Assembly: GCA_965215685.1 (NCBI GenBank)
Contig: OZ244113.1
Coordinates: 2,429,652 to 2,493,651 of the forward strand
Reading direction: 5' to 3'
DNA: 64,000 nucleotides
From: Chitinophagales bacterium
GTDB taxonomy: Bacteria; Bacteroidota; Bacteroidia; Chitinophagales; JAHQVX01
The notes below the pieces were generated by a model, which saw only the letters and a program-made list of their open reading frames with translations, did not search any database and was not told where the DNA came from. This document shows, piece after piece, positions 17,931-44,198 of the stretch (positions within the stretch are counted from its first letter, which is position 1; each line of letters opens with the position of its first letter). A program made the position numbers and the translations under genes.

Positions 17931-17973
17931 TTTTTTTTAAAAAAAATTAAACAAAATGCGCTAACTTAGAAGT

Positions 17974-19452
17974 GTGAAAAGCGCATCCAACCCAAGCGTG
18001 GTTATAATAGGAGCTGGATTTTCTGGTCTTGCAGCGGCAATATGTTTAGCCGATGAAGGATATATTGTAACCGTGGTTGAAAAGAATGAACAGGCAGGTG
18101 GAAGAGCAAGGCAATTTTCTACTGATGGATTTACGTTCGATATGGGTCCGAGTTGGTATTGGATGCCTGACGTTTTCGAGTCTTTCTACAAAAGATTTGG
18201 ATATACGACATCTGATTTTTATACACTGAAAAGGTTAGATCCATCTTATAAAATCTTTTGGCAGGATGAAGCATTAGAAGTTCCTGCTGGAATCGAAGCT
18301 CTTAGCAATTTGTTTGAAAAGTATGAGCCCGGGGCGGCTAAGAACTTAAAACTATTTCTTCAACAGGCCCATCAAATGTATGAAACCAGTATGGATGACA
18401 TGGTATTTCTTCCGGGCCATAGTATTTGGGAATATGCTCAGGCACGTGTGCTAAAGGCAGCTTTTAAAATGAATATTTTTTCTTCTTTTCACAGCTATAT
18501 CCGAAAGTTCTTTAAGCATCCCAAATTACTTCAAATGCTTGAGTTTCCTGTACTTTTTCTTGGGGCTACTGCACGACAAACCCCTGCTATGTACAGTTTA
18601 ATGAACTATGGCGATATGGTTTTGGGAACGTGGTACCCGGAAGGAGGAATGTACGAAATAGTTAAAGCTCTGATGAAAATTGCCAGGTCAAAAGGTGTGG
18701 AGTTCAGGTTTGGTGAAGCAGCAGAATCAGTTCATTGCCAAAAGAAATTTGCTGTCGGCGTGCAAACTTCAAGGCAGATTTATTCATGTGATTATGTGGT
18801 AGCCTCGGCCGATTATCAATTTGTAGAACAAAATTTGTTACCGCCTGGTTACCGGCAATACTCCAAAACATATTGGAATAAAAGAGCCATGTCACCTTCT
18901 GCCTTAATTTTTTATTTGGGTATAGAAGGAAAATTGGACGGACTAAAGCATCATAACCTGTTTTTTGATGCAGATTTTGGTAAACATTCTCATCAGCTGT
19001 ATAATAAGATTAGTTGGCCCGACAACCCGCTTTTTTATGTTTGTAATGCCTCAAAATCAGATCCTGGCATGGCACCGTTGGGTCATGAAAATTTGTTTGT
19101 GCTAATACCTGTTGCCCCGGGTCTTTCGGGTAATGACGAAATCCATAACCATTATTTTGAACAGATTGTACGTCGAATAGAAAACCATACACAACAAAAA
19201 TTGGGTAAAGTAGTATATAAAAAAGCCTATGCCCACCAACACTTTATTGAAGATTACAATGCATTTAAAGGTAATGCTTATGGCTTGGCAAATACACTAA
19301 AACAAACAGCTGTACTTAAACCTAAACTGAAAAACAAACTGTTAAATAATTTCTATTATACAGGGCAACTAACCGTACCCGGGCCCGGTGTGCCCCCTTC
19401 ATTAATATCTGGCCAGATTGCTGCTAATGAGATAATTAAAGCGCGAGCATGA
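17974..19452 (+). CDS. crtI: Phytoene desaturase
   Basis: 492 aa with GTG start. VVIIGAGFSGLAAA FAD fold and a C-terminal LTVPGPGVPPSLISG motif. Confidence 0.92.
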   Translation: MKSASNPSVVIIGAGFSGLAAAICLADEGYIVTVVEKNEQAGGRARQFSTDGFTFDMGPSWYWMPDVFESFYKRFGYTTSDFYTLKRLDPSYKIFWQDEALEVPAGIEALSNLFEKYEPGAAKNLKLFLQQAHQMYETSMDDMVFLPGHSIWEYAQARVLKAAFKMNIFSSFHSYIRKFFKHPKLLQMLEFPVLFLGATARQTPAMYSLMNYGDMVLGTWYPEGGMYEIVKALMKIARSKGVEFRFGEAAESVHCQKKFAVGVQTSRQIYSCDYVVASADYQFVEQNLLPPGYRQYSKTYWNKRAMSPSALIFYLGIEGKLDGLKHHNLFFDADFGKHSHQLYNKISWPDNPLFYVCNASKSDPGMAPLGHENLFVLIPVAPGLSGNDEIHNHYFEQIVRRIENHTQQKLGKVVYKKAYAHQHFIEDYNAFKGNAYGLANTLKQTAVLKPKLKNKLLNNFYYTGQLTVPGPGVPPSLISGQIAANEIIKARA

Positions 19453-20285
19453 AGCAAATGTTTGATGACATATCATTTAAGACAGCAAAAAGCATTACAA
19501 AAAAGTACAGTACTTCTTTTTCTATAGGCACAAGACTTTTTAATAAACGAGTGAGAAAAGACGTTTATGCCATTTATGGTTTTGTAAGGGTTGCCGATGA
19601 AATAGTTGACTCTTTTCACAACTATGATAAACAAACTTTACTTCATCAATACCGTAGTGAAACTTACAATGCTTTAGAACGGGGAATTAGTACAAACCCG
19701 GTGATTAATGCCTTTCAGGATGTTGTGGTTAGAAACTCGATCGGCCGCGATCTTATTGAAGCTTTTTTTTCCAGCATGGAAAAAGACTTGGAATTAGATT
19801 ACTTTAAAGAACAGGATTATAAAAGCTATATCTATGGTTCGGCAGAAGTAGTTGGCTTAATGTGTCTCAAAGTTTTTTGCGAAGGATTGGAACATAAATA
19901 CAACGAACTGAAGTCGTATGCGAAGAGCCTTGGCGCGGCATTTCAAAAAGTTAATTTCTTACGCGATATAAGAGATGACTTTCATGATTTAGGACGGACG
20001 TATTTTCCCAATCTCGATCTAACTGATTTTTCCGAAACTGAAAAAGGCGCTATAGTAGGTGATATAAAAAACGATTTTAAACATGCATACGCGGGAATCA
20101 AAAAATTACCGCACGGAAGTAAGCTCGGAGTGTATGTAGCCTATGTTTACTATAGAAATTTGCTAAGAAAAGTTGAAAAAAGAAAAGCTAAAGAATTGAT
20201 GAAAAGGCGTATTAGAATTCCAAATGGAAGAAAATTATATCTGTTAATGAAAAGCTATTTTAATTATAAACTTAAAAGAGTTTAG
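19449..20285 (+). CDS. crtB: Phytoene synthase
   Basis: 278 aa. Asp-rich motifs (VADEIVD, LRDIRDD). 4-nt overlap with the crtI stop. Confidence 0.92.
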   Translation: MKQMFDDISFKTAKSITKKYSTSFSIGTRLFNKRVRKDVYAIYGFVRVADEIVDSFHNYDKQTLLHQYRSETYNALERGISTNPVINAFQDVVVRNSIGRDLIEAFFSSMEKDLELDYFKEQDYKSYIYGSAEVVGLMCLKVFCEGLEHKYNELKSYAKSLGAAFQKVNFLRDIRDDFHDLGRTYFPNLDLTDFSETEKGAIVGDIKNDFKHAYAGIKKLPHGSKLGVYVAYVYYRNLLRKVEKRKAKELMKRRIRIPNGRKLYLLMKSYFNYKLKRV

Positions 20286-20818
20286 TGCATAAACATTATA
20301 ATAATATTGTGCTTTTAGTAGATGACAACGATAAAGTTATCGGAAACATGGATAAATTGTTGGCACATGAGCTTGGCGTATTACACAGGGCTTTTTCTGT
20401 ATTTCTGTTTAATGGACAGAATGAGTTATTATTACAAAAGCGTTCCAGCCAAAAATATCACTCGGCTGGGTTATGGAGTAATACTTGTTGCAGCCACCCT
20501 GTTACCGACAACATCCAAACCGAAGCCGAAATCAGGCTTAAAGAAGAAATGGGAATAGAAGGAAACTTGGTTAAGCTGTTCACCAGTCAGTACAATTTAC
20601 TTGTAAGTGAAGACATGAAAGAGCGCGAAATGGATCATGTGTACATTGCCTACAGCGACTTACAACCCAAGCCCAATCCTGATGAGGTGGAAGACTATAA
20701 ATGGCTCTCGATTGATGAATTAGACCATGATCTGCTAAGAAATGAAGATCAATACTCATCATGGTTTAAGATTTTATATCCAAAGGTTCGTAAACATATA
20801 TTGGAAAACAATGTTTGA
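20285..20818 (+). CDS. idi: Isopentenyl-diphosphate delta-isomerase, type 1
   Basis: 177 aa. Nudix-like fold with the WSNTCCSHP active-site motif. Confidence 0.9.
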   Translation: MHKHYNNIVLLVDDNDKVIGNMDKLLAHELGVLHRAFSVFLFNGQNELLLQKRSSQKYHSAGLWSNTCCSHPVTDNIQTEAEIRLKEEMGIEGNLVKLFTSQYNLLVSEDMKEREMDHVYIAYSDLQPKPNPDEVEDYKWLSIDELDHDLLRNEDQYSSWFKILYPKVRKHILENNV

Positions 20819-21272
20819 TCGAAGTCATATATTAACCAGGCAACAAATAATAAAAGCAGATATAAAAGATGTTTGGGCTTTTTTTTCTAATCCCGCCAAC
20901 TTATCCTTGATTACACCACCTTCAATGAACTTTCAGGTGGTTTCAGAATTAGGTGAACAGGTCAGGGAGGGTCAGATAATTGAGTACCGGGTAAAGCCCC
21001 TGCCTGGATTAAGGATGAAATGGGTTTCAAGGATCAGCAAACTTATTCCAAACAAAAGTTTTACCGATGTACAGCTCCAGGGTCCATATAAACTTTGGAG
21101 ACACCATCATGTCTTTAAAGAAGTAGAACAAGGAGTTGAAATGACGGATACAATTGAGTATGCGCTATCCTTCTGGCCACTCGGAAATTTGCTCTTGCCT
21201 GTGATAAAGCACCGACTAAGCTTTATATTTAACTACCGGTACAAATTTGTTGAATCGTATTTTAATAAATGA
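20811..21272 (+). CDS. SRPBCC (cyclase/dehydrase-like) ligand-binding protein
   Basis: The track ORF starts at 20742 inside idi. Met at 20811 (MFDRSHILTRQQ) overlaps the idi stop by 8 nt. The sequence resembles SRPBCC proteins commonly embedded in Bacteroidota crt clusters. Confidence 0.65.
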   Translation: MFDRSHILTRQQIIKADIKDVWAFFSNPANLSLITPPSMNFQVVSELGEQVREGQIIEYRVKPLPGLRMKWVSRISKLIPNKSFTDVQLQGPYKLWRHHHVFKEVEQGVEMTDTIEYALSFWPLGNLLLPVIKHRLSFIFNYRYKFVESYFNK

Positions 21273-21745
21273 TTATAGCCCTTTACATATTAATTGTTGT
21301 TGTTGCATTTCTGATCATGGAATTTTCAGCCTGGGCTATGCACAAGTTTGTAATGCATGGTTTCCTATGGCATTTACACGAAGATCATCATGTACCGCGG
21401 AAAGGTTTCTTTGAAAAAAATGACACTTTTTTTCTAATATATGCTGTTCCGACCATCCTGCTTTTTTACTTTGGGTCGCGTAACGGTATTGATTACAGGT
21501 TCTTTATCGGACTCGGCATTTTTCTTTATGGCACTGCCTACTTTTTAGTACACGATGTGCTTATTCATCAACGATTCAAGTGGTTTCGCCGCACGAACAA
21601 TGTTTATTTCAGGGCCTTACGAAAGGCGCACAAGGTGCACCATAAACATTTGGGTAAAGAAGATGGTGAGTGCTTTGGTATGCTTATAGTTCCTTACAAA
21701 TATTTCAAAGAGGCGCGTCAAATGGTTAAAGCCGCAGCTTCCTGA
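21269..21745 (+). CDS. crtZ: Beta-carotene hydroxylase
   Basis: 158 aa membrane protein. His boxes HEDHH, HDVLIHQRF and HKVHHKH. Confidence 0.88.
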   Translation: MIIALYILIVVVAFLIMEFSAWAMHKFVMHGFLWHLHEDHHVPRKGFFEKNDTFFLIYAVPTILLFYFGSRNGIDYRFFIGLGIFLYGTAYFLVHDVLIHQRFKWFRRTNNVYFRALRKAHKVHHKHLGKEDGECFGMLIVPYKYFKEARQMVKAAAS

Positions 21746-21750
21746 TTTTC

Positions 21751-22437
21751 ATGGAAAAGTACTTATACCTATTAATAAATGTAGCATCAGTGAGCATTCC
21801 GTTACTGGCTTCCTTTCACAGGAGGTTAAAGTTCAATAGACATTTTAAACCCCTGTTGTTTGCACTGATATCAACAGCCATCCTGTTTCTTATTTGGGAT
21901 GAGATTTTTACCAGGCAAGGTATTTGGGGCTTTAATGACAGGTATATCACCGGCTTTAAAATAGGCGCATTGCCCGTTGAAGAAATTCTGTTTTTCTTCT
22001 GTATTCCTTTTGCATGTGTGTTTACCTACTATTCATTAGGAAAAATAAAAAGGTCAGCTTTCGGCATTAAGGGAATAAATCTTATCTATGCTTTCTTAGG
22101 AGTTTTATTCATCGTTTCCACTTTTGCCTTTCCCGCACAACGTTACACACAAATAACGTTTTTAATTACAGGAACAACCTTATTACTTTCAAACCTCGCG
22201 CTAAGCAAGGAACAACAAAGCCGTTTTTTAGTCAGTTATTTAATTCTTCTAATTCCCTTTTTTATAACCAATGGTGTTTTAACAGGTTCATGGATACCGG
22301 AAGAGGTCGTTTGGTATAATGATTCTGAGCACCTGGGAATCAGGGTAGGCACGGTACCGATAAACGATATGGCTTACATGCTGGCACTTCTCTTAATGAA
22401 TGTGTCGCTGTTCGAATGGTTCAGATCCAGGGGATAA
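21751..22437 (+). CDS. Lycopene cyclase domain protein (fused CrtYc/Yd type)
   Basis: 228 aa, multi-pass membrane protein with two internally similar halves. Its position at the end of the crt operon is consistent. Confidence 0.78.
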   Translation: MEKYLYLLINVASVSIPLLASFHRRLKFNRHFKPLLFALISTAILFLIWDEIFTRQGIWGFNDRYITGFKIGALPVEEILFFFCIPFACVFTYYSLGKIKRSAFGIKGINLIYAFLGVLFIVSTFAFPAQRYTQITFLITGTTLLLSNLALSKEQQSRFLVSYLILLIPFFITNGVLTGSWIPEEVVWYNDSEHLGIRVGTVPINDMAYMLALLLMNVSLFEWFRSRG

Positions 22438-22686: not shown

Positions 22687-24765
22687 ATGCTTAAAGCTTT
22701 AATAGTGCCAGAACCGAAAAGATATCTTGTAACATCCGCTTTGCCATACGCCAATGGCCCTCTGCATATTGGACACCTGGCCGGTGCGTACATTAACGCC
22801 GACATATATGTGCGCTATTTACGTGCTAAGGGAAAGGATGTAGCCTTTATCTGCGGTAGTGACGAGCACGGCGCAGCCATTACCATTCGGGCTAAGAAGG
22901 AAGGAACCACACCCAAAGCCATTATTGATAAATATCACAGCATCATAAAAAAGGCATTTGAAGATTTTGGCATTTCATTCGATATATATCACCGCACTTC
23001 CGATCCATTACACCATATAACTTCGCAGGAAGTATTCACCAGACTGAACAATGACGGTAAGTTTGTTCAAAAGGAAAGCGAGCAGTATTATGATAAAGAA
23101 GCTAACCAATTTTTGGCCGACCGTTATATAAAAGGAACTTGTCCTAACTGCAACTACGAAGAAGCCTATGGTGACCAGTGTGAGAATTGCGGTACCAGCC
23201 TAAGTCCGCGTGAGTTAATAAATCCGCGTTCAACACTCAGTGATTCCGAACCGGTATTGCGAAAAACCACGCACTGGTATTTTCCCTTAAATGAATATGA
23301 AAACTGGCTGAAGGAATGGATACTTGACGGACATAAAGATTGGAAGAAAAATGTTTACGGCCAATGTAAAAGCTGGTTGGAAAACGGTCTGCAACCACGT
23401 GCTATGACGCGCGATCTGGATTGGGGAATTCCTGTACCTGTTGAGGGTGCCAAAGGCAAAGTCCTTTACGTTTGGATGGATGCGCCTATTGGCTATATTT
23501 CAGCAACAAAGCAATGGGCTGAAGATATGGGCAAAGATTGGAAAGACTATTGGATGAGCGAGGACAGCCATTTGATTCATTTCATAGGCAAGGATAACAT
23601 TGTATTTCATTGTATCACCTTCCCGGCGGTTTTGAAGGCACATGGAGGCTTTAACCTTCCGGTTAATGTGCCGGCCAATGAGTTTATGAATTTGGAAGGC
23701 GATAAGATCTCCACTTCAAGGAATTGGGCAATATGGTTACATGAGTATTTAGCTGAGTTTCCCGGTAAGCAAGATGAATTGCGCTATGTTCTCACAGCCA
23801 ATATGCCTGAAACCAAGGACAGTGAATTTACGTGGAAGGATTACCAAAGCCGTGTGAACAGCGAGTTGGTGGCCAACCTGGGTAATTTTGTGAATCGTGT
23901 TTTTGTGTTAACCAATAAGTACTTTAATGGGAAGGTGCCTGCATTGGATGAATCAGCCCTAACGGATGAAAACAAGGCTGTCATTCGGGAACTTGCAACA
24001 TTCAAGTCGAAAATATCTGATGAACTGGACAACTTTCGCTTTCGTGAAGCCCTGGCTGAAATAATGAATATTGGCAGGCTTGGAAACAAATTCCTGGCCG
24101 ATACCGAGCCCTGGAAATTGATAAAAACCGATGAAGATTCAGTAAAGAACATCTTGCACATAAGCCTTCAAATAGCTGCGAATTTGGCCATTGCCATGAA
24201 ACCATTCCTTCCAAACTCATCTCAAAAATTAATTGATATGATAAAATTGAAAAACGAAGGTTGGGAACTTTTGGGCAACATTGATCTTGTGCCTGCCGGC
24301 CATCAACTTGGCGAATTTGATCATCTTTTTTCTAAAGTGGAAGATGCCGTTGTGGAAGCTCAGGTTGCCAAACTGCATGCGACAAAAGAAGCCCAAACTT
24401 TAAATCTTGAACCTGAAACCTTAAACCAATATAAACCTATGATCCAATTCGATGATTTTACAAAAATTGACCTTCGCATCGGCACAATTAAAGAAGCTGT
24501 GAAAGTACCGGAAACCGATAAACTCCTTCATTTTAGCGTAGATATGGGTAATGGTGAAATACGGTCGGTTATATCGGGTGTTGCGCAATACTACCAGCCC
24601 GAAGAAACCATTGGCAAACAGGTTTGTGTAGTGGCTAACCTTACACCTCGAAAAATGCGCGGTATCGAAAGTCAGGGTATGATATTGTTTGCCGAAGATG
24701 CCGAAGGCAACCTCAAATTCATGAGCCCTGAAGCTGTAATGCCAAATGGCAGTGTGGTGGCGTGA
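22687..24765 (+). CDS. metG: Methionine--tRNA ligase
   Basis: 692 aa. HIGH motif (PLHIGHLAG), KMSKS variant (DKISTSR), zinc knuckles CPNC...CENCG, and a C-terminal tRNA-binding domain. Confidence 0.96.
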
Positions 24766-32156: not shown

Positions 32157-32220
32157 TAATAGATCTTATGGTTGATTAGATGTCATCTTAACTGAAATCT
32201 TGCGCAAAAGTCATAAAAAA

Positions 32221-32244
32221 ACCCGAATCGAAGCCGATTCGGGT
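32221..32244 (-). terminator. Rho-independent terminator of the adhesin gene
   Basis: ACCCGAATCG-aagc-CGATTCGGGT with an A7 run on the plus strand just before it (a T-tract on the minus strand after the hairpin). Lies 21 nt downstream of the stop at 32265. Confidence 0.6.
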
Positions 32245-32264
32245 TTGTATTATTTTATTAATGG

Positions 32265-34848
32265 TTATCTAATTATTGCAAACCTTTCCGTATTTCCTCT
32301 CTTGCCGTCTGAGAGATGCACATAGTACATTCCTTCGGCCAAGCCAGCCATGTATAAGTTTTGCACATATTTAACACCTTTATTTAGATCGCGACTTTCA
32401 ATTGTTTTAACAACTCTGCCATGTGTGTCAAGAATTGTAATATCAAGTTGCGCCATATCATAATGCGGAATGAAACTTACTGTTCCATTTATTTGAATGG
32501 GATTAGGTGTTACCTTCAAATCAAGGAACATCTCTTCAGCAGGTTTGTCTTCTGCCAAAGTGATTCCTCCTGCACGTGTATGGTTCTCATTACATGTAAC
32601 TCCGTGAGCAATGATGTATATCTCATCACAGCCTAATTCAGAGACATCAACCGTTAAAGGGACACCATCTTCCAGACCACTAAACGGATACCGACCGGGA
32701 GCATTATTCTCATTACCGATCTGTAATGGCTCACACCCGATATACAGATGTGTTTCCGTCAGGCTATGTCCATCCGCCATGCTATAAGTCACTTCTACCT
32801 GGCCGTTGTCATATACAACATACAAGTCACCTACATAGGTATCGCTTGAAGCATTGCAATGGGCGGCTCCGGCATGTAGCTCCATGGTGTAATTGTCTTC
32901 AGTCAGCGGTCCGTTAGTCCAACCCCATTTATTGTTGGAAGCACCGGCATCAGTAAAGCAAGTGGCGTTGTCAGCCGACATAGCATATAATGTATCGCAA
33001 TCTTCTTCACAATCTTCATAACAAACTTTCTCACATATTACTCCATGAGTTATTATCCAAAGCGGATCGCAATCCAAAGATGTAACATCAATGGTGTAAG
33101 TATATGTTTGAACGCCGTCATGTGATTCTGAAGATGGATATTGACCTGGAGCTACAGTAGGTTTTCCTCTCTTTGTAGGATATTTATCACATCCAACATA
33201 TACATGACTTTCGGTGAGTACATAACCGTCAATTACTGAGTAAGTAACAACTACCTCATCTCCTTGATAACTCACCATTATATCACCAACATCCAATCCT
33301 TTATCCGTATCGCAAAGAGCAGCACCTGCATAAAGATCTAATGTATATGAACCACCTTCAGAGATTTGGTTTGTCCAACCCCATCGGTTAAACCCATCAT
33401 CAATGAAACAATCAGAATCATTACCGCCTAAAGCGAAGGCTGTTTCACAATCTACATATTCACATACTTCTTCACAGTCAGGATCAGGCTCACAATCACA
33501 AACTTCCTGACAGGTATTACCACCATGTACAATGATGTATAATTCTCCATTATTATCACAATTAAATTCAGATACATCAACAGTATAAGGCACACCATCT
33601 TCCAAACCACTATATGGATATTGACCCGGTGCCACAGTTGGTTTACCTTTTTTATTGGCAGGAATTGGACCACAGCCAATATAAAGATGTGTATCGCTAA
33701 TGGTAAATCCATCATTCATATTGTAGGTAACGGTTACTTCATCATCATGATAGGATACGGAAACCGTACCTGCCAGTTCACCTTTAGATGTATCACACTG
33801 TCCTGCACCGGCCCATACGTCGTAGGTATAATCGTTGCCTTCGATGATCTTGTTGGTCCAACCCCATCTGCTAAATCCGTATTCACTAAAGCATTCGCCG
33901 TCATCTCCTTTGGCAAAGGATGTTTCGCATTCGCCAATTTCACAGCAACGCTCAACTGTTATAGTTTGCGTGTGCTCAACTGGGTTACCGCATTCATCTT
34001 CGGCAGACCACGTTCGTGTTATCACTTTTTCGATAAATTCATCTTCTTCGCATGTGAATTCCATAATATCTTCAACGTATGTTACTTCTACATTATCATC
34101 ACAGTTATCATCGGCAGTAACAATTGGTGCAACCGGTATCTCCTGATCACATTCAACAGTAATGTCTCCGGGTGTTTCGCTTAAGACCGGTGCTGTTTCA
34201 TCGTAGTATCTGGTAACTTTTACTGTTACTTCTTCTGCTGCATTTCCACATTCGTCATCTACATTAAATGTATAGATACGGTATTGACTACAACCGTCGT
34301 CACCGTTCATGATCGGACCGCTTACCCCTGTAATGGTACCTCCGCCTGAGCAGTTGTCAGTCCAGGTAGTGGTAGGAGCTGCCGGCCAATCTTGATTACA
34401 AACCGTAATGTTCACATCATCTAGTGGAGTGATTTCCGGTGCTGTTTCATCGTAGTATCTGGTAACTTTTACTGTTACTTCTTCTGCTGCATTTCCACAT
34501 TCGTCATCTACATTAAATGTATAGATACGGTATTGACTACAACCGTCGTCACCGTTCATGATCGGACCGCTTACCCCTGTAATGGTACCTCCGCCTGAGC
34601 AGTTGTCAGTCCAGGTAGTGGTAGGAGCTGCCGGCCAATCTTGATTACAAACCGTAATGTTCACATCATCTAGTGGAGTGATTTCCGGTGCTGTTTCATC
34701 GTAGTATCTGGTAACTTTTACTGTTACTTCTTCTGCTGCATTTCCACATTCGTCATCTACATTAAATGTATAGATACGGTATTGACTACAACCGTCGTCA
34801 CCGTTCATGATCGGACCGCTTACCCCTGTAATGGTACCTCCGCCTGAG
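32265..34848 (-). CDS. C-terminal portion of a giant HYR-like repeat adhesin: 2.65 repeat units, one divergent HYR-like domain, three Cys-rich ~150-aa domains, and a T9SS C-terminal sorting domain. No own start or signal peptide.
   Basis: The frame is open up to the junction at 34848 (track ORF 32265..34808 begins at an internal Met). The C-terminus KVTPNPIQINGTVSF...GMYYVHLSDGKRGNTERFAIIR is a typical T9SS type A sorting domain. Confidence 0.7.
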
Positions 34849-37800
34849 ATGCAGCAGAAGAAGTAACAGTAAAAGTTACCAGATACTACGATGAAACAGC
34901 ACCGGAAATCACTCCACTAGATGATGTGAACATTACGGTTTGTAATCAAGATTGGCCGGCAGCTCCTACCACTACCTGGACTGACAACTGCTCAGGCGGA
35001 GGTACCATTACAGGGGTAAGCGGTCCGATCATGAACGGTGACGACGGATGTAGTCAATACCGTATCTATACATTTAATGTAGATGACGAATGTGGAAATG
35101 CAGCAGAAGAAGTAACAGTAAAAGTTACCAGATACTACGATGAAACAGCACCGGAAATCACTCCACTAGATGATGTGAACATTACGGTTTGTAATCAAGA
35201 TTGGCCGGCAGCTCCTACCACTACCTGGACTGACAACTGCTCAGGCGGAGGTACCATTACAGGGGTAAGCGGTCCGATCATGAACGGTGATGACGGATGT
35301 AGTCAATACCGTATCTATACATTTAATGTAGATGACGAATGTGGAAATGCAGCAGAAGAAGTAACAGTAAAAGTTACCAGATACTACGATGAAACAGCAC
35401 CGGAAATCACTCCACTAGATGATGTGAACATTACGGTTTGTAATCAAGATTGGCCGGCAGCTCCTACCACTACCTGGACTGACAACTGCTCAGGCGGAGG
35501 TACCATTACAGGGGTAAGCGGTCCGATCATGAACGGTGATGACGGATGTAGTCAATACCGTATCTATACATTTAATGTAGATGACGAATGTGGAAATGCA
35601 GCAGAAGAAGTAACAGTAAAAGTTACCAGATACTACGATGAAACAGCACCGGAAATCACTCCACTAGATGATGTGAACATTACGGTTTGTAATCAAGATT
35701 GGCCGGCAGCTCCTACCACTACCTGGACTGACAACTGCTCAGGCGGAGGTACCATTACAGGGGTAAGCGGTCCGATCATGAACGGTGATGACGGATGTAG
35801 TCAATACCGTATCTATACATTTAATGTAGATGACGAATGTGGAAATGCAGCAGAAGAAGTAACAGTAAAAGTTACCAGATACTACGATGAAACAGCACCG
35901 GAAATCACTCCACTAGATGATGTGAACATTACGGTTTGTAATCAAGATTGGCCGGCAGCTCCTACCACTACCTGGACTGACAACTGCTCAGGCGGAGGTA
36001 CCATTACAGGGGTAAGCGGTCCGATCATGAACGGTGATGACGGATGTAGTCAATACCGTATCTATACATTTAATGTAGATGACGAATGTGGAAATGCAGC
36101 AGAAGAAGTAACAGTAAAAGTTACCAGATACTACGATGAAACAGCACCGGAAATCACTCCACTAGATGATGTGAACATTACGGTTTGTAATCAAGATTGG
36201 CCGGCAGCTCCTACCACTACCTGGACTGACAACTGCTCAGGCGGAGGTACCATTACAGGGGTAAGCGGTCCGATCATGAACGGTGATGACGGATGTAGTC
36301 AATACCGTATCTATACATTTAATGTAGATGACGAATGTGGAAATGCAGCAGAAGAAGTAACAGTAAAAGTTACCAGATACTACGATGAAACAGCACCGGA
36401 AATCACTCCACTAGATGATGTGAACATTACGGTTTGTAATCAAGATTGGCCGGCAGCTCCTACCACTACCTGGACTGACAACTGCTCAGGCGGAGGTACC
36501 ATTACAGGGGTAAGCGGTCCGATCATGAACGGTGACGACGGATGTAGTCAATACCGTATCTATACATTTAATGTAGATGACGAATGTGGAAATGCAGCAG
36601 AAGAAGTAACAGTAAAAGTTACCAGATACTACGATGAAACAGCACCGGAAATCACTCCACTAGATGATGTGAACATTACGGTTTGTAATCAAGATTGGCC
36701 GGCAGCTCCTACCACTACCTGGACTGACAACTGCTCAGGCGGAGGTACCATTACAGGGGTAAGCGGTCCGATCATGAACGGTGACGACGGTTGTAGTCAA
36801 TACCGTATCTATACATTTAATGTAGATGACGAATGTGGAAATGCAGCAGAAGAAGTAACAGTAAAAGTTACCAGATACTACGATGAAACAGCACCGGAAA
36901 TCACTCCACTAGATGATGTGAACATTACGGTTTGTAATCAAGATTGGCCGGCAGCTCCTACCACTACCTGGACTGACAACTGCTCAGGCGGAGGTACCAT
37001 TACAGGGGTAAGCGGTCCGATCATGAACGGTGATGACGGATGTAGTCAATACCGTATCTATACATTTAATGTAGATGACGAATGTGGAAATGCAGCAGAA
37101 GAAGTAACAGTAAAAGTTACCAGATACTACGATGAAACAGCACCGGAAATCACTCCACTAGATGATGTGAACATTACGGTTTGTAATCAAGATTGGCCGG
37201 CAGCTCCTACCACTACCTGGACTGACAACTGCTCAGGCGGAGGTACCATTACAGGGGTAAGCGGTCCGATCATGAACGGTGATGACGGATGTAGTCAATA
37301 CCGTATCTATACATTTAATGTAGATGACGAATGTGGAAATGCAGCAGAAGAAGTAACAGTAAAAGTTACCAGATACTACGATGAAACAGCACCGGAAATC
37401 ACTCCACTAGATGATGTGAACATTACGGTTTGTAATCAAGATTGGCCGGCAGCTCCTACCACTACCTGGACTGACAACTGCTCAGGCGGAGGTACCATTA
37501 CAGGGGTAAGCGGTCCGATCATGAACGGTGACGACGGATGTAGTCAATACCGTATCTATACATTTAATGTAGATGACGAATGTGGAAATGCAGCAGAAGA
37601 AGTAACAGTAAAAGTTACCAGATACTACGATGAAACAGCACCGGAAATCACTCCACTAGATGATGTGAACATTACGGTTTGTAATCAAGATTGGCCGGCA
37701 GCTCCTACCACTACCTGGACTGACAACTGCTCAGGCGGAGGTACCATTACAGGGGTAAGCGGTCCGATCATGAACGGTGACGACGGTTGTAGTCAATACC

Positions 37801-39849
37801 GTATCTATACATTTAATGTAGATGACGAATGTGGAAATGCAGCAGAAGAAGTAACAGTAAAAGTTACCAGATACTACGATGAAACAGCACCGGAAATCAC
37901 TCCACTAGATGATGTGAACATTACGGTTTGTAATCAAGATTGGCCGGCAGCTCCTACCACTACCTGGACTGACAACTGCTCAGGCGGAGGTACCATTACA
38001 GGGGTAAGCGGTCCGATCATGAACGGTGATGACGGATGTAGTCAATACCGTATCTATACATTTAATGTAGATGACGAATGTGGAAATGCAGCAGAAGAAG
38101 TAACAGTAAAAGTTACCAGATACTACGATGAAACAGCACCGGAAATCACTCCACTAGATGATGTGAACATTACGGTTTGTAATCAAGATTGGCCGGCAGC
38201 TCCTACCACTACCTGGACTGACAACTGCTCAGGCGGAGGTACCATTACAGGGGTAAGCGGTCCGATCATGAACGGTGATGACGGATGTAGTCAATACCGT
38301 ATCTATACATTTAATGTAGATGACGAATGTGGAAATGCAGCAGAAGAAGTAACAGTAAAAGTTACCAGATACTACGATGAAACAGCACCGGAAATCACTC
38401 CACTAGATGATGTGAACATTACGGTTTGTAATCAAGATTGGCCGGCAGCTCCTACCACTACCTGGACTGACAACTGCTCAGGCGGAGGTACCATTACAGG
38501 GGTAAGCGGTCCGATCATGAACGGTGATGACGGATGTAGTCAATACCGTATCTATACATTTAATGTAGATGACGAATGTGGAAATGCAGCAGAAGAAGTA
38601 ACAGTAAAAGTTACCAGATACTACGATGAAACAGCACCGGAAATCACTCCACTAGATGATGTGAACATTACGGTTTGTAATCAAGATTGGCCGGCAGCTC
38701 CTACCACTACCTGGACTGACAACTGCTCAGGCGGAGGTACCATTACAGGGGTAAGCGGTCCGATCATGAACGGTGATGACGGATGTAGTCAATACCGTAT
38801 CTATACATTTAATGTAGATGACGAATGTGGAAATGCAGCAGAAGAAGTAACAGTAAAAGTTACCAGATACTACGATGAAACAGCACCGGAAATCACTCCA
38901 CTAGATGATGTGAACATTACGGTTTGTAATCAAGATTGGCCGGCAGCTCCTACCACTACCTGGACTGACAACTGCTCAGGCGGAGGTACCATTACAGGGG
39001 TAAGCGGTCCGATCATGAACGGTGATGACGGATGTAGTCAATACCGTATCTATACATTTAATGTAGATGACGAATGTGGAAATGCAGCAGAAGAAGTAAC
39101 AGTAAAAGTTACCAGATACTACGATGAAACAGCACCGGAAATCACTCCACTAGATGATGTGAACATTACGGTTTGTAATCAAGATTGGCCGGCAGCTCCT
39201 ACCACTACCTGGACTGACAACTGCTCAGGCGGAGGTACCATTACAGGGGTAAGCGGTCCGATCATGAACGGTGACGACGGATGTAGTCAATACCGTATCT
39301 ATACATTTAATGTAGATGACGAATGTGGAAATGCAGCAGAAGAAGTAACAGTAAAAGTTACCAGATACTACGATGAAACAGCACCGGAAATCACTCCACT
39401 AGATGATGTGAACATTACGGTTTGTAATCAAGATTGGCCGGCAGCTCCTACCACTACCTGGACTGACAACTGCTCAGGCGGAGGTACCATTACAGGGGTA
39501 AGCGGTCCGATCATGAACGGTGACGACGGTTGTAGTCAATACCGTATCTATACATTTAATGTAGATGACGAATGTGGAAATGCAGCAGAAGAAGTAACAG
39601 TAAAAGTTACCAGATACTACGATGAAACAGCACCGGAAATCACTCCACTAGATGATGTGAACATTACGGTTTGTAATCAAGATTGGCCGGCAGCTCCTAC
39701 CACTACCTGGACTGACAACTGCTCAGGCGGAGGTACCATTACAGGGGTAAGCGGTCCGATCATGAACGGTGACGACGGTTGTAGTCAATACCGTATCTAT
39801 ACATTTAATGTAGATGACGAATGTGGAAATGCAGCAGAAGAAGTAACAG
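34849..39849 (+). repeat. Inverted block of 20 x 249-bp near-identical units (+21 nt), coding sense on the plus strand
   Basis: GATGATGTGAAC recurs at 34920 + 249k (k=0..19). I found only two variable sites per unit. Sharp junctions at 34848|34849 and 39849|39850. Confidence 0.95.
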
Positions 39850-39902
39850 AGGTTGTGCTCAATGAAGTTGGCCAATCCTGGTTACAGTTAGGTAAAGTAT
39901 AG
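34926..39902 (+). CDS. Repeat-only ORF (20 HYR-like units) created by the inverted block; doubtful as an independent gene
   Basis: 1658-aa open frame with an in-frame TGA at 34845-47 immediately upstream. The first candidate start is GTG at 34926. No signal peptide and no sorting domain. The 3' end reads antisense into the N-terminal fragment. Confidence 0.35.
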   Translation: MNITVCNQDWPAAPTTTWTDNCSGGGTITGVSGPIMNGDDGCSQYRIYTFNVDDECGNAAEEVTVKVTRYYDETAPEITPLDDVNITVCNQDWPAAPTTTWTDNCSGGGTITGVSGPIMNGDDGCSQYRIYTFNVDDECGNAAEEVTVKVTRYYDETAPEITPLDDVNITVCNQDWPAAPTTTWTDNCSGGGTITGVSGPIMNGDDGCSQYRIYTFNVDDECGNAAEEVTVKVTRYYDETAPEITPLDDVNITVCNQDWPAAPTTTWTDNCSGGGTITGVSGPIMNGDDGCSQYRIYTFNVDDECGNAAEEVTVKVTRYYDETAPEITPLDDVNITVCNQDWPAAPTTTWTDNCSGGGTITGVSGPIMNGDDGCSQYRIYTFNVDDECGNAAEEVTVKVTRYYDETAPEITPLDDVNITVCNQDWPAAPTTTWTDNCSGGGTITGVSGPIMNGDDGCSQYRIYTFNVDDECGNAAEEVTVKVTRYYDETAPEITPLDDVNITVCNQDWPAAPTTTWTDNCSGGGTITGVSGPIMNGDDGCSQYRIYTFNVDDECGNAAEEVTVKVTRYYDETAPEITPLDDVNITVCNQDWPAAPTTTWTDNCSGGGTITGVSGPIMNGDDGCSQYRIYTFNVDDECGNAAEEVTVKVTRYYDETAPEITPLDDVNITVCNQDWPAAPTTTWTDNCSGGGTITGVSGPIMNGDDGCSQYRIYTFNVDDECGNAAEEVTVKVTRYYDETAPEITPLDDVNITVCNQDWPAAPTTTWTDNCSGGGTITGVSGPIMNGDDGCSQYRIYTFNVDDECGNAAEEVTVKVTRYYDETAPEITPLDDVNITVCNQDWPAAPTTTWTDNCSGGGTITGVSGPIMNGDDGCSQYRIYTFNVDDECGNAAEEVTVKVTRYYDETAPEITPLDDVNITVCNQDWPAAPTTTWTDNCSGGGTITGVSGPIMNGDDGCSQYRIYTFNVDDECGNAAEEVTVKVTRYYDETAPEITPLDDVNITVCNQDWPAAPTTTWTDNCSGGGTITGVSGPIMNGDDGCSQYRIYTFNVDDECGNAAEEVTVKVTRYYDETAPEITPLDDVNITVCNQDWPAAPTTTWTDNCSGGGTITGVSGPIMNGDDGCSQYRIYTFNVDDECGNAAEEVTVKVTRYYDETAPEITPLDDVNITVCNQDWPAAPTTTWTDNCSGGGTITGVSGPIMNGDDGCSQYRIYTFNVDDECGNAAEEVTVKVTRYYDETAPEITPLDDVNITVCNQDWPAAPTTTWTDNCSGGGTITGVSGPIMNGDDGCSQYRIYTFNVDDECGNAAEEVTVKVTRYYDETAPEITPLDDVNITVCNQDWPAAPTTTWTDNCSGGGTITGVSGPIMNGDDGCSQYRIYTFNVDDECGNAAEEVTVKVTRYYDETAPEITPLDDVNITVCNQDWPAAPTTTWTDNCSGGGTITGVSGPIMNGDDGCSQYRIYTFNVDDECGNAAEEVTVKVTRYYDETAPEITPLDDVNITVCNQDWPAAPTTTWTDNCSGGGTITGVSGPIMNGDDGCSQYRIYTFNVDDECGNAAEEVTVKVTRYYDETAPEITPLDDVNITVCNQDWPAAPTTTWTDNCSGGGTITGVSGPIMNGDDGCSQYRIYTFNVDDECGNAAEEVTEVVLNEVGQSWLQLGKV

Positions 39903-40831
39903 TCAGGAATGTCAACGATCTCAGGAGCTTCAGTGTCTGTAATCGTAATCGTTTGCACACAAGTTACCGGAGTCCGGCCTTCACAGGGTGGAGTAGCTGT
40001 CCAGGTTCTTTCAATTACCTCTGTACAACCATCATCGCTTATCGTAACATCGTTATAAGTAATCTCTGCTTCACAATTGTTGGTAATTGTGGCTTCACCA
40101 AGAACTGCAGGGTCAATAGATTCATCACATTCAACCGTAACATCATCCGGACAATCTAAAACCGGTGTACATTCTTCACAATCTTCCGGTCCCGGAACAT
40201 CTGTAAAATATTCATTCGGACCTGCCTTTATAGCAAATTGAATAGTGCCAACGGGTTGAATACCATCAACACATAGGAAATACATGGCAGAACCACCCTG
40301 GTCAAATTTAACTCCACATATACCTGTTGTCGGATCTTGCCCCTGCGTTGGTGCCCCATTTCCCGGTACTTGTGTTATATCACAGGTGGTGTCGTCAATT
40401 GTCCAGGTTCCCACCGTAGTATTCTCAGGGTCATCGAGACAAGTGCTTTCACAGTCGTTTTCTCCAAAAATTACATGACTTATCCCGGGGCTTTCATTGT
40501 CATCAATACAGTAGTAGAAATATGACTTACAATTAACGTAATCATATTCCACTCCCGCAAAAATGATCGTATGCGTGGTTCCAGAAATGGTTATGGGTGT
40601 GTTGGCATCACAAGCAATGTCACAATGGTTTAGCAATTCAGTTCTGTCGTCGTAAATAGGAAATACTGAAAAATCATCGATTGCTATTTGAGCAGATATA
40701 TTCAGAGATAACATAAGCAAAACGGCAGTTTCTAATAGCAGAACGGCCGTTTTTCTTATAGACGAAAATACTTCCAAATTTGTGCAACAAGAGCGTACAC
40801 ATGATGTTGATATTGTTTTGAAATCTATCAT
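39797..40831 (-). CDS. N-terminal portion of the same adhesin (signal-peptide-like N-terminus + HYR-like domain), truncated 17 codons after the junction
   Basis: 344-aa ORF with hydrophobic segment AVLLLETAVLLMLSLNISAQ. DDVTVECDESIDP...CTEVIERTWTATPPCEG...TITDTEAPE is HYR-like. Native sequence ends at ...NCNQDWPTSLSTT (39850), then SVTSSAAFPHSSSTLNV* is antisense repeat. Confidence 0.7.
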   Translation of the reverse strand: MIDFKTISTSCVRSCCTNLEVFSSIRKTAVLLLETAVLLMLSLNISAQIAIDDFSVFPIYDDRTELLNHCDIACDANTPITISGTTHTIIFAGVEYDYVNCKSYFYYCIDDNESPGISHVIFGENDCESTCLDDPENTTVGTWTIDDTTCDITQVPGNGAPTQGQDPTTGICGVKFDQGGSAMYFLCVDGIQPVGTIQFAIKAGPNEYFTDVPGPEDCEECTPVLDCPDDVTVECDESIDPAVLGEATITNNCEAEITYNDVTISDDGCTEVIERTWTATPPCEGRTPVTCVQTITITDTEAPEIVDIPDYTLPNCNQDWPTSLSTTSVTSSAAFPHSSSTLNV

Positions 40832-41388: not shown

Positions 41389-41414
41389 GCCCCGTTATAC
41401 TTAAATAACGGGGC
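41389..41414 (-). terminator. Terminator downstream of rplI (bidirectional-looking)
   Basis: GCCCCGTTAT-acttaa-ATAACGGGGC, flanked by an A6 run upstream and a T-rich tract downstream on the plus strand. Lies 28 nt after the rplI stop. Confidence 0.65.
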
Positions 41415-42546: not shown

Positions 42547-42739
42547 AACTTACTTTTTAATTTATTATTTAATTTCTTTTTCCTGATTTTGTAAAATCGG
42601 GCTGCGAAGATAATGGTTTTAATTATTAACCTTAGTTAGAATAATAATTATTAGGTTCAGATTTTTAACAAAATCTATAATTCCCCCTGAAATTAGGACA
42701 GTAAATTAAATTATACTTTAGAATTAAATTTATTGTCAA

Positions 42740-43015
42740 ATGAAGAGAAGAAAATTCACATCAGATTTCAAATTTAAGGTTGTATTGGAAGCCTTAAGTG
42801 AACGCTACAGTATTCAGGAGTTAGCACGTAAATATGAGATACATGCTACCCAGATCAGTAATTGGAAGACCCAGTTCATCATGAACGGGCAACATGTTTT
42901 TGATCGTCCGGCAAAGGATAAAAAGACCGAGGAACAAGAAAGGGAGGAAGCCTTGTTAAAAACCATTGGCCAACAGAAGGTTGAGATTGATTTTTTAAAA
43001 AAAGCCTTATCATGA
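42740..43015 (+). CDS. IS3-family transposase OrfA (HTH)
   Basis: 91 aa, MKRRKFTSDFKFKVVLEALSERYSIQELARKYEIHATQISNWK, with a leucine-zipper-like C-terminus. Confidence 0.85.
   Translation: MKRRKFTSDFKFKVVLEALSERYSIQELARKYEIHATQISNWKTQFIMNGQHVFDRPAKDKKTEEQEREEALLKTIGQQKVEIDFLKKALS
42997..43004 (+). promoter_or_regulatory. A7G slippery site for -1 programmed frameshift (OrfAB fusion)
   Basis: ttA AAA AAA Gcc in the orfA frame. A -1 slip reads KKSLIMKEDV..., which is the orfB frame (orfB is +2 relative to orfA). Confidence 0.6.
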
Positions 43016-43872
43016 AAGAGGATGTGCAACAGAGAAGAGCACATGTTGATAAGGCACACGAGCTTAGTGTTGTTAAGCAATCGGAGTTGTTAAGTATCCA
43101 TCGTAGCGGGCTTTATTACAAACCTGTGGGAGAAACAGTTTTAAATTTGGAGTTGATGCGTCTGATTGACCAACAGTATATGAAATATCCTTTTTTGGGT
43201 GTACCGCGAATGACAGCTTGGCTAAGAAAAGACAAGGGTTATAAGATCAACAAAAAGCGTGTTGAGCGACTTTACCGGTTGATGGGTATAAGTGCCATAG
43301 GGCCAAAGCCAAATACATCTAAAAGGGGCAAAGGCTCAGGACACCGGGTTTACCCATATCTATTAAGATCCTTAGATATTACTCACGCCAATCAGGTATG
43401 GGCAACAGACATCACATACATTCCTATACAGGGTGGTTATTTATATTTATGTGCCATTATAGATGTGTATAGCCGTTATGTGGTAGGTTGGTCTTTATCT
43501 AATACCATGACTTCGGCATGGTGCAAAGATGTGTTGCAAGAAGCTGTAAGCCAGCATGGTAAACCCCAAATACTCAATACCGACCAGGGCAGCCAGTTTA
43601 CAGCCATTGAATTTAGTAGCTGGGTTAGCGAACAGGATATACGTTTAAGTATGGATGGGAAAGGACGAGCCATTGATAACATATTTATTGAACGTTTATG
43701 GCGAAGTGTAAAATATGAGCAAATTTATCTTTACCCTGCAGACGATGGTTTGGAGTGTTACAACGGATTAGTTAAATATTTTACTTACTACAATTGTGAA
43801 AGGCGGCATCAAAGTTTACAAGATGAATGTCCGGTATATTTATACAAACAACGAAAGAAGCAAGTGGCATGA
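43012..43872 (+). CDS. IS3-family transposase OrfB (DDE integrase core)
   Basis: 286 aa with WATDITYIP, LNTDQGSQFTA and ERLWRSVKYE motifs. ATGA overlap with the orfA stop. Confidence 0.9.
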   Translation: MKEDVQQRRAHVDKAHELSVVKQSELLSIHRSGLYYKPVGETVLNLELMRLIDQQYMKYPFLGVPRMTAWLRKDKGYKINKKRVERLYRLMGISAIGPKPNTSKRGKGSGHRVYPYLLRSLDITHANQVWATDITYIPIQGGYLYLCAIIDVYSRYVVGWSLSNTMTSAWCKDVLQEAVSQHGKPQILNTDQGSQFTAIEFSSWVSEQDIRLSMDGKGRAIDNIFIERLWRSVKYEQIYLYPADDGLECYNGLVKYFTYYNCERRHQSLQDECPVYLYKQRKKQVA

Positions 43873-44198
43873 AAACGGCTTTACCACATTTCAACACTAT
43901 GGGTGGAAAAAAAGAATGGTTTTTCCATGTATTGAAATGTGGAAAAGCCTTCATGTCTCACTTAACTTTACATTTTTACTGTCCTAACGATGGGGGGAAT
44001 TATAGTATTGAAAATATCGCTTGGGTGACCCATTTACGGAAGTCAGGAAACTCTTGAATCTTCCTATTTTCAATCGTTCTAACCCCGAGATATTAGCCGA
44101 ACCCAGGTTAAACGTGAATAGTGGATAAGAAATTCCGTTTACGGAATTGTTTGTGTTATTCGTAATAAATTGTCCATAAATGCTTTAATGAATGTTTT

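What the first reader, a model, noticed from the sequence alone, without database searches (positions are those of the whole stretch)
34188..39902. Giant T9SS adhesin gene interrupted by an inverted 5,001-bp block of 20 near-identical 249-bp repeat units
Gene layout, seen directly:
- A minus-strand gene starts at 40831 with a signal-like N-terminus and an HYR-like domain.
- A minus-strand frame ending at 32265 carries 2.65 copies of an 83-aa unit (WTDNCSGGGTITGVSGPIMNGDDGCSQYRIYTFNVDDECGNAAEEVTVKVTRYYDETAPEITPLDDVNITVCNQDWPAAPTTT), three Cys-rich domains and a T9SS sorting domain.
- Between them, 34849-39849 holds the same unit 20 times (20 x 249 + 21 = 5,001 nt = 1,667 codons), but encoded on the plus strand.

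Junctions (unit phase is numbered from the T of the Trp TGG codon):
- Left: ...ggtacctccgcctgag|atgcagcagaag... at 34848|34849. Minus-unit phase 15 meets plus-unit phase 122.
- Right: ...gaagaagtaacag|aggttgtgctc... at 39849|39850. Plus-unit phase 142 meets the N-terminal flank at phase 1.
- I see no microhomology at either junction.

As assembled, the gene is in three pieces:
- The N-terminal piece stops 17 codons after the junction.
- The plus-strand repeat ORF has an in-frame TGA (34845-47) just upstream. It has no ATG, signal peptide or sorting domain.
- The C-terminal piece has no start codon.

Flipping the block back gives an in-frame N-side junction (...STT-Y-AAEEVTV..., a 40-codon loss). 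It leaves a 121-nt loss, and so a frameshift, at the C-side junction. One clean inversion therefore does not fully explain the structure.

The left junction creates a ~661-nt near-perfect inverted repeat (34188-34848 versus 34991-35651) with a 142-nt spacer. Long inverted repeats like this are generally unstable in bacteria. No invertase or recombinase is encoded nearby.

Interpretation (inference): either a real recent rearrangement that inactivates or switches an adhesin of ~2,850 aa, or a chimeric long-read or assembly artefact within a tandem array.
Basis: partly seen in the sequence, partly recalled or inferred. Interest (0 to 1): 0.8.

Follow-up and report, generated by a model that had tools for sequence, protein, structure and literature searches.

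The report
Wrong-way repeat block in adhesin gene
A giant secreted adhesin gene is split by a 5,001-base stretch of its own 249-base repeats lying on the opposite strand; the sequence really reads this way, but it is more likely a mis-oriented assembly piece than a biological switch, and only the raw reads can settle it.

Summary
A minus-strand gene (40831 to 32265) encodes a repeat adhesin exported by the type IX secretion system (T9SS). It is interrupted at 34849-39849 by 20.08 copies of its own 249-nt unit on the plus strand. Another 2.66 copies remain on the minus strand at 34187-34848.

Both junctions are flush, with no microhomology, no flanking inverted repeats and no recombinase. The unit has no internal palindrome.

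The block is not a fold-back copy of its neighbours, because the unit variants differ. A simple inversion does not restore the gene. Homologous flipping between the two arrays cannot restore it either, so this is not a switch.

Flipping the block and merging its perfect 128-nt or 377-nt end overlap with the minus array gives one open frame of 2,812 aa. Supplying 120 missing bases gives 2,852 aa with 23 units. The block is exactly 5,001 nt. Removing it leaves a gap of exactly 13 nt, and restoring those bases gives an intact short gene.

No related genome or metagenome contig exists for comparison.

My reading:
- A separately built array piece was pasted in the wrong orientation: about 0.6.
- A real, very recent, complex inactivating rearrangement: about 0.3.

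Interest is low unless reads confirm it.

The parts
39850..40831 (-). N-terminal piece of the adhesin gene: 327 codons plus the first base of the Trp codon. It holds a hydrophobic signal-like stretch, a unique region and one diverged HYR_4C-like domain. It ends with the first 26 residues of the next domain (APEIVDIPDYTLPNCNQDWPTSLSTT), exactly where WTDNC... should follow.
   Evidence: ORF 39797..40831. BLASTP to the gene's own HYR_4C domain gives E 3e-7. Homologues continue ...LTTNWTDNC at this point. No Pfam or NCBIfam hit.
39797..39849 (-). Out-of-sense tail of the N-terminal ORF: about 17 codons read from the antisense of the block, then a stop.
   Evidence: tail SVTSSAAFPHSSSTLNV.
34849..39849 (+). 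Block of 5,001 nt, which is 20 x 249 + 21 nt of the adhesin repeat unit with its sense on the plus strand (opposite to the gene). It runs from phase 122 to phase 142 and begins and ends with the same 21-mer. The only variable sites are phases 66 and 72, both synonymous.
   Evidence: HYR_4C, E 1e-14.
34848..34849 (.). Left junction: minus-array phase 15 abuts plus-array phase 122. Microhomology is 0 nt.
   Evidence: Comparison with both parental continuations was done by reading.
39849..39850 (.). Right junction: plus-array phase 142 abuts phase 1 and the N-flank. Microhomology is 0 nt.
34187..34848 (-). 2.66 repeat units in the gene's own orientation (phase 15 of one unit, then one full unit, then phase 178 of the last). 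All three carry the C/T variant pair.
32265..34186 (-). Unique C-terminal part: one diverged HYR_4C domain, three Cys-rich 'WGWTN' domains and the T9SS type A sorting domain (about 32274-32507), then the stop codon.
   Evidence: The same architecture is seen in P0003, P0014, P0017 and P0026.
32219..32246 (.). Bidirectional terminator-like hairpin just after the gene's stop codon. A second hairpin at 41389-41414 ends the upstream rplI operon. The three pieces therefore lie within one transcription unit.

Best explanation
The locus encodes one large T9SS-secreted adhesin on the minus strand. Its layout is an N-terminal region, then about 22-23 (or more) near-identical 83-aa HYR_4C units, then three Cys-rich domains, then a type A sorting domain.

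The plus-strand block is most likely a genuine stretch of this gene's own array. I think it was built as a separate sequence piece and placed between the two flanking pieces in the wrong orientation. It was abutted rather than merged. The result is about 128 nt (or 377 nt) of redundant overlap on the C-terminal side and about 120 nt (plus n x 249) missing on the N-terminal side.

On this reading the gene is intact in the organism, and the three ORF fragments and the 662-nt inverted repeat exist only in the record.

Shown: the geometry, the variants, and the absence of any recombination signature. Inferred: that the cause is assembly or finishing.
For: 1. Reverse-complementing the block and merging its perfect 128-nt or 377-nt terminal overlap with the minus array gives a single ORF from the ATG at 40831 to the stop at 32265. 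It is 2,812 aa, or 2,852 aa with 23 units if 120 nt of the first unit are supplied.
2. Unit variants fit this order. The sense-3' end of the block is CT, CT, and the minus array that would follow it is CT, CT, CT. The block end that now touches the minus array is CA, TA, TA....
3. Both junctions are flush with 0-nt microhomology. The unit has no internal inverted repeat longer than 6 nt. There are no flanking inverted repeats and no recombinase. So no known in-vivo inversion mechanism has a footprint here.
4. The numbers look man-made or algorithmic.
   - The block is exactly 5,001 nt. By my estimate, a length within 1 nt of a multiple of 1,000 has roughly a 0.3% chance for a random breakpoint pair.
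   - Deleting the block leaves a deficit of exactly 13 nt, and restoring those bases gives an intact 1,192-aa ORF with 2.7 units. That is what a collapsed-array draft would look like.
5. Arrays of this gene family are typical assembly break points.
   - The Salinimicrobium gaetbulicola homologue has a 137-N scaffold gap inside its 255-nt array.
   - P0016 ends at a contig end.
   - Many homologues are labelled 'partial'.
6. All complete homologues are collinear.
7. All 22.7 units encode identical protein and no piece shows decay.
Against: - No reads, assembly method or organism name could be recovered, so the mechanism of the error is inferred.
- Standard long-read assemblers do not normally invert an internal block. 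Reads longer than about 6 kb would span the array.
- Read-level fold-back chimeras are excluded (against the definition in PMC12870357), so a less common finishing or patching error has to be assumed.
- My tests for a minimizer-space assembler signature were negative.
- The rest of the 64-kb window shows long, unbroken ORFs, and an IS element is assembled cleanly. The assembly is otherwise good.
- In a tandem array any junction can be rewritten as an overlap, so the 128-nt overlap is not independent evidence.
- The round length could be coincidence.
Confidence: 0.6

Rival explanations
1. This is a real, very recent, complex rearrangement that inactivates the adhesin. Two double-strand breaks in the array (or a two-step template switch) inverted about 20 units by non-homologous joining. 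About 120 nt were lost at one junction. At the other, either 121 nt were lost or 128 nt were duplicated in inverted orientation. The result is a pseudogene plus a recombinogenic pair of inverted arrays. RecA-dependent exchange between them would move the left junction but could never repair the gene.
For: - The sequence is internally clean, with no indels in 5 kb of block.
- The variant pattern shows an authentic segment of the array was turned around, not duplicated.
- The 101-142-nt spacer makes the inverted repeat tolerable in a recombination-proficient cell (PMC4245961).
- Long inverted repeats, and alternative isomers generated by them, have been validated in bacterial chromosomes (PMC12199158).
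- The window's other genes are intact, which points to a good assembly.
Against: - It needs at least three events or one complex event, because a conservative inversion does not restore the gene.
- Neither junction has microhomology and the unit has no quasi-palindrome, so template-switch models lack a footprint.
- Blunt end-joining is rare in bacteria (established knowledge; Ku/LigD could not be checked in a 64-kb window).
- Simpler loss-of-function routes are far more frequent.
- The exact 5,001-nt length and the 13-nt deficit are unexplained coincidences under this model.
Confidence: 0.3
2. The block does not belong here at all. The true gene has only about 2.7 units (1,192 aa). The 5,001-nt array comes from a paralogous gene elsewhere in the genome, or from a patching or insertion-calling step, and replaced 13 nt of this gene.
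For: Removing the block and restoring GGACTGACAACTG gives an intact ORF. The block shares no flank with the locus.
Against: - The block's units are identical in protein, and almost identical in DNA, to the resident units, and they share the CT variant at the matching end.
- No second copy of the unit exists in the window.
- The rest of the genome is not available.
- Homologues commonly have 8-10 or more units.
Confidence: 0.06
3. This is a programmed, reversible inversion (phase or antigenic variation) of the adhesin's repeat region.
For: The two arrays form long perfect inverted repeats that would recombine. Bacteroidota are known for invertible surface-protein loci (established knowledge).
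Against: - No short inverted repeats bracket the block, and the block ends are a direct 21-nt repeat.
- No invertase was found. The only mobile-element gene is an IS3 transposase 1.9 kb upstream of the gene start.
- Neither orientation gives a complete ORF.
- Homologous flipping leaves a 131-nt out-of-frame insert between the N-flank and the array (phase arithmetic).
- The right junction has no homology partner, so it cannot be reversed.
Confidence: 0.02

Closest known systems
T9SS-secreted adhesins with tandem HYR_4C (PF23237) repeats in Flavobacteriia. Examples are P0003 (1,377 aa, JGI metagenome), P0014 (Hanstruepera flava, 1,140 aa) and P0017 (1,249 aa).
   Same: The order of parts is the same: a unique N-terminal region, then near-identical 83-85-aa units with the motif ...CN.DWP...TT(W/N)WTDNC...DDCGN...DET, then a diverged unit, then a Cys-rich 'WGWTN' domain, then a type A sorting domain.
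   Different: These homologues are collinear single ORFs with 2-9 units and one WGWTN domain. The window gene has about 23 units and three WGWTN domains, its best identity to any of them is only 51%, and as recorded most of its array is on the wrong strand.
Assembly breaks inside the arrays of the same gene family. Examples are the Salinimicrobium gaetbulicola GCA_042676025.1 scaffold gap, contig-end truncations, and the many homologues labelled 'partial'.
   Same: The problem sits inside a long array of units that are 96-100% identical, with unique flanks on both sides belonging to one gene.
   Different: There the break is declared (137 Ns) and both sides stay collinear. Here there are no Ns and the middle piece is reversed.
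Fold-back (palindromic) long-read artefacts (PMC12870357).
   Same: An inverted junction with little or no intervening sequence. The left junction would fall within the 200-bp tolerance used to call fold-backs.
   Different: A fold-back arm must be the reverse complement of the same units. Here the adjacent units differ (CA, TA, TA against CT, CT, CT), the block is 20 units long against 2.66, and it ends in the other flank.
Recombination-driven isomerisation at long inverted repeats in bacterial chromosomes (Lactobacillus crispatus 69.9-kb repeats, PMC12199158). From general knowledge, also RecA-dependent inversion at the Campylobacter fetus sap locus.
   Same: If real, the two inverted arrays (at least 662 nt, 99-100% identical) would flip the DNA between them and create subpopulations.
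   Different: Those repeats are bounded by IS elements or conserved gene 5' ends, and each isomer is functional. Here no isomer restores the gene.

Membership tests
T9SS type A cargo protein | C-terminal sorting domain (TIGR04183 / PF18962) at the extreme C-terminus | tested here: met
   TIGR04183 scores 24.3 bits against a cut-off of 23, at aa 559-636 of the 640-aa C-terminal part. Pfam PF18962 scores 26.0-26.7 bits, just under its cut-off of 27.
T9SS type A cargo protein | N-terminal Sec signal peptide | tested here: inconclusive
   By eye there is a hydrophobic stretch, RKTAVLLLETAVLLMLSLNISAQ, at aa 26-48, after an unusually long 25-aa leader. No signal-peptide predictor was available, and the true start codon may lie downstream.
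T9SS type A cargo protein | T9SS machinery (PorK/L/M/N, SprA and others) encoded in the genome | not testable with these tools
   Only a 64-kb window is available. The genome was not found in any collection.
HYR_4C tandem-repeat adhesin | Repeat unit matches PF23237 above the gathering score | tested here: met
   54.8 bits, E 1e-14, for four units; 49.3 bits for the C-terminal piece.
HYR_4C tandem-repeat adhesin | All domains collinear in one ORF, as in complete homologues | tested here: not met
   As recorded there are three ORF pieces on two strands. The feature is met only after the block is flipped and merged.
Site-specific invertible element (inverton or shufflon) | Short inverted repeats at both ends of the invertible segment | tested here: not met
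   The junction sequences share no inverted similarity. The block ends are a direct 21-nt repeat.
Site-specific invertible element (inverton or shufflon) | Invertase or recombinase encoded nearby | tested here: not met
   Pfam on ORFs from 16 kb to 57 kb found only housekeeping genes and one IS3-family DDE transposase.
Site-specific invertible element (inverton or shufflon) | At least one orientation yields a functional product | tested here: not met
   As assembled, the first stop is at aa 344. After a simple flip, the first stop is at aa 2003.
Simple conservative inversion | Reverse-complementing the segment restores the parental sequence | tested here: not met
   Flipping leaves deficits of 120 nt and 121 nt (phases 2-121, and 143-249 plus 1-14).
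Fold-back chimeric read artefact | The second arm is the reverse complement of the same stretch of DNA (PMC12870357) | tested here: not met
   The variant patterns of the adjacent arms differ and the arm lengths are 2.66 against 20 units.
Template-switch rearrangement or tandem inversion duplication | Junctions at short inverted repeats, quasi-palindromes or microhomology | tested here: not met
   The longest sense/antisense shared word in the unit is 6 nt, and the only quasi-palindrome (phases 93-105) is not at a junction. Both junctions have 0 nt of microhomology.

The most novel reading that the evidence does not exclude
The structure is real. A recent non-homologous inversion of about 20 units inside a perfect tandem array has killed a 2,850-aa T9SS adhesin. 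It has also created two long, opposed, identical arrays that keep flipping by homologous recombination, giving a heterogeneous cell population. This would be a rare documented case of an end-joining-type inversion inside a bacterial tandem-repeat gene, in a deep-branching Bacteroidota lineage (the nearest methionyl-tRNA synthetase, MetRS, is 70% identical).
Probability: 0.28. Interest if true: 0.45.

Novelty: not a real feature. Interest (0 to 1): 0.2.

Why it matters
If it is an artefact, the record misrepresents a large surface adhesin as three fragments. Annotation pipelines would then miss or pseudogenise a protein of about 2,850 aa, and the locus is a useful test case for assembly validation in long perfect arrays.

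If it is real, it would show that bacterial tandem-repeat adhesin genes can be inactivated by non-homologous inversion. It would also give a natural substrate for studying recombination between long, closely spaced inverted arrays. Either way the finding does not reveal a new functional system.

Tried and rejected
**Comparative approach.** None of these gave a related locus.
- The N-terminal piece has no relative in the species-representative genomes or in JGI metagenome contigs.
- An exact 34-mer of the unit is absent from the metagenome contigs.
- The C-terminal piece has no relative above 51% identity among 5.8 billion proteins.
- All three ORF pieces are singletons from one 3,205,684-bp contig.
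- The exact-protein contig look-up failed.

**Organism identification.**
- MetRS has no hit above 70% identity.
- The IS3 transposase has no hit above 73% in the genome collection, so no second IS copy revealed the genome.
- A literature search for the genome size was uninformative.

**Fold-back read hypothesis.** Rejected on the unit variants.

**Homology-driven mis-join or template switch.** Rejected because the unit has no internal inverted repeat.

**Minimizer-space assembler signature.** I computed ntHash for l = 10-31 and a Murmur3 hash for l = 13, 15 and 21, written from my memory of rust-mdbg and metaMDBG. The junction l-mers (phases 2, 122, 130) are not hash minima. The best case is phase 122, ranked third for one encoding. 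This gives no support, and the implementation is unverified.

**'Right junction sits exactly at the array boundary' as an argument for an artefact.** Dropped. The phase numbering was defined from that junction, and the first 120 nt of the first unit are missing, so the true boundary is unknown.

**Rfam.** No RNA family in the window.
Full report
**1. Checking the observation**

- Tandem Repeats Finder reports two adjacent arrays of a 249-nt unit. One is at 34187-34848 (2.7 copies, 100% matches). The other is at 34849-39849 (20.1 copies, 99% matches).
- The arrays are reverse complements of each other. The arms are 662 nt at 99-100% identity, and the innermost registers leave spacers of 142 nt or 101 nt.
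- A 21-mer from the unit occurs 3 times on the minus strand and 21 times on the plus strand. It occurs nowhere else in the 64-kb window.
- I number phases from the T of the Trp codon. The minus array then begins at phase 15, the plus block runs from phase 122 to phase 142, and the N-terminal flank ends at phase 1.
- The ORFs are 39797..40831 (-), 34926..39902 (+) and 32265..34808 (-).

Minor corrections:
- In-frame ATG codons do exist in every unit.
- Pfam does not detect the N-terminal HYR-like domain, but BLASTP against the gene's own HYR_4C domain does (E 3e-7).
- An IS3-family transposase lies 1.9 kb upstream of the gene start.

**2. What the gene is**

- The unit is an HYR_4C domain (PF23237, E 1e-14).
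- The C-terminal part has one diverged HYR_4C domain and three Cys-rich 'WGWTN' domains. It ends in a T9SS type A sorting domain (TIGR04183, 24.3 bits against a cut-off of 23).
- Complete homologues (P0003, P0014, P0017) have the same order of parts in one collinear ORF. In them the N-terminal region runs straight into ...LTT(N/T)WTDNC.... The window's N-terminal piece breaks off at exactly this point.
- A terminator-like hairpin follows the stop codon at 32219-32246. Another, at 41389-41414, closes the upstream rplI operon.
- The three pieces therefore belong to one gene and one transcription unit.

**3. Anatomy of the block**

All 22.7 units encode the same protein. Only two synonymous sites vary, phase 66 (T/C) and phase 72 (A/T). 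I name each unit by its bases at these two sites.

| Segment | Variants, in sense order |
|---|---|
| Plus block (20 units) | CA, TA x5, CA, CT, TA x2, CA, CT, TA x5, CA, CT, CT |
| Minus array (3 units) | CT, CT, CT |

Two things follow.
- The block is not a reverse-complement copy of its neighbours. This excludes a fold-back read as defined in PMC12870357, and a fold-back duplication in vivo.
- The block's sense-3' end (CT, CT) matches the sense-5' end of the minus array. So the block once lay, or really lies, in the gene's orientation directly upstream of those units.

**4. The junctions**

- Both junctions are flush. Comparing each one with the two parental continuations shows 0 nt of microhomology.
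- The unit shares no word longer than 6 nt with its own reverse complement.
- No inverted repeats bracket the block. Its ends are a direct 21-nt repeat.
- No invertase or recombinase is encoded between 16 kb and 57 kb.
- Site-specific inversion, homologous inversion and microhomology-mediated template switching therefore all lack a footprint.

**5. Frame analysis**

| Manipulation | Result |
|---|---|
| As assembled | First stop after 344 aa |
| Simple flip, pieces abutted | In-frame N-side junction (...STT-Y-AAEEVTV...), then a frameshift at the C side; first stop at aa 2003 |
| Flip, then merge the perfect 128-nt or 377-nt overlap with the minus array | One ORF from 40831 to 32265 (2,812 aa with the 128-nt merge) |
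| Flip, merge, and supply the 120 missing bases of the first unit | 2,852 aa with 23 units (128-nt merge) or 2,769 aa with 22 units (377-nt merge) |
| Delete the block | A 13-nt deficit and a frameshift |
| Delete the block and restore GGACTGACAACTG | Intact 1,192-aa ORF with 2.7 units |

Homologous exchange between the two arrays would only move the left junction. It would leave a 131-nt out-of-frame insert after the N-flank. No isomer is functional, so the 'switch' reading fails.

**6. Real or artefact**

Comparison with other genomes was impossible. The genome is a single 3,205,684-bp contig known from NCBI and ENA. It has no close relative in any collection. MetRS is at most 70% identical to anything else, the adhesin at most 51%, and there were no hits in the genome or metagenome contig scans.

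For an artefact:
- One flip plus one overlap merge restores a complete gene.
- No biological mechanism leaves its mark.
- The block is exactly 5,001 nt. By my estimate, a length within 1 nt of a multiple of 1,000 has about a 0.3% chance.
- Removing the block leaves what looks like a collapsed-array draft.
- Arrays of this family are known assembly break points. The Salinimicrobium homologue has a 137-N gap inside its array, and another homologue is cut off at a contig end.

Against an artefact:
- The window is otherwise cleanly assembled, including an IS element.
- Common read-level artefacts are excluded.
- Ordinary long-read assemblers rarely invert an internal block.
- The overlap argument is not independent evidence in a periodic array.

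The inverted repeat is not in itself an argument against reality. Palindromes with a spacer of only 20-24 bp are tolerated in recombination-proficient E. coli (PMC4245961). Long inverted repeats with alternative isomers have also been validated in Lactobacillus crispatus (PMC12199158).

**7. Verdict**

| Explanation | Confidence |
|---|---|
| A separately built array piece inserted in the wrong orientation and abutted | about 0.6 |
| A real, very recent, multi-step rearrangement that inactivates the gene | about 0.3 |
| A misplaced or foreign array piece in a gene that really has 2.7 units | about 0.06 |
| A programmed switch | about 0.02 |

The underlying gene is an ordinary, though very large, member of the HYR_4C / T9SS adhesin class. 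The question is settled by mapping the original long reads or by four PCRs. Until then the feature should not be interpreted biologically.

Noticed in passing
window 42675-44005: An apparently intact IS3-family insertion sequence of about 1,331 bp. It has orfA (42740-43015) and orfB (43012-43872; rve, HTH_21) and imperfect 31-nt terminal inverted repeats. It sits immediately upstream of what I read by eye as the rpsF-rpsR-rplI operon. The closest relatives are 70-73% identical, in Parapedobacter, Aquimarina and Flagellimonas. Several of those are whole contigs of about 1.33 kb.
   Followed up: partly
window 22687-24765: MetRS has no relative above 70% identity among 5.8 billion proteins. The genome therefore represents a deep-branching, otherwise unsampled Bacteroidota lineage. 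It is absent from the species-representative genome collection.
   Followed up: partly
window 17055-22437: An apparent carotenoid gene cluster. By eye the ORFs look like phytoene synthase, IPP isomerase, a hydroxylase and a lycopene cyclase. It is preceded by a MerR-family regulator with a B12-binding domain (17055-17930), which would fit light- or B12-dependent control of the LitR/CarH type. Only the regulator was run against Pfam.
   Followed up: no
window 32600-33900 (aa about 290-760 of the C-terminal ORF): Three copies of a Cys-rich domain of about 150-190 aa, with the motifs CET.FA, RWGWTN, AGAG.CD, HLY.GC and TVAPGQYP. No Pfam or NCBIfam model matched at E <= 0.1. Homologues carry one copy and have faint precomputed PF19017 (DUF5746) hits.
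   Followed up: partly
The 1,658-aa block ORF (P0121) is in the protein collection. Its units are 100% identical to the query's, yet it was not among the 120 listed hits of the homology search. Highly repetitive proteins may therefore be missed by that search, so the absence of paralogues in the list is weak evidence.
   Followed up: no
window 40829-40831 and aa 1-48 of the N-terminal ORF: The predicted start gives a 25-residue leader before the signal-like hydrophobic stretch. The true start codon may be further downstream. A 560-nt non-coding region separates the gene from the rplI terminator.
   Followed up: no
L082 7865-8000 (Salinimicrobium gaetbulicola JBHTJP010000035.1): The homologous adhesin gene in this public assembly is split by a 137-N scaffold gap inside its 255-nt unit array. 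It is annotated as two proteins (1,103 aa and 882 aa, the latter labelled 'partial').
   Followed up: yes
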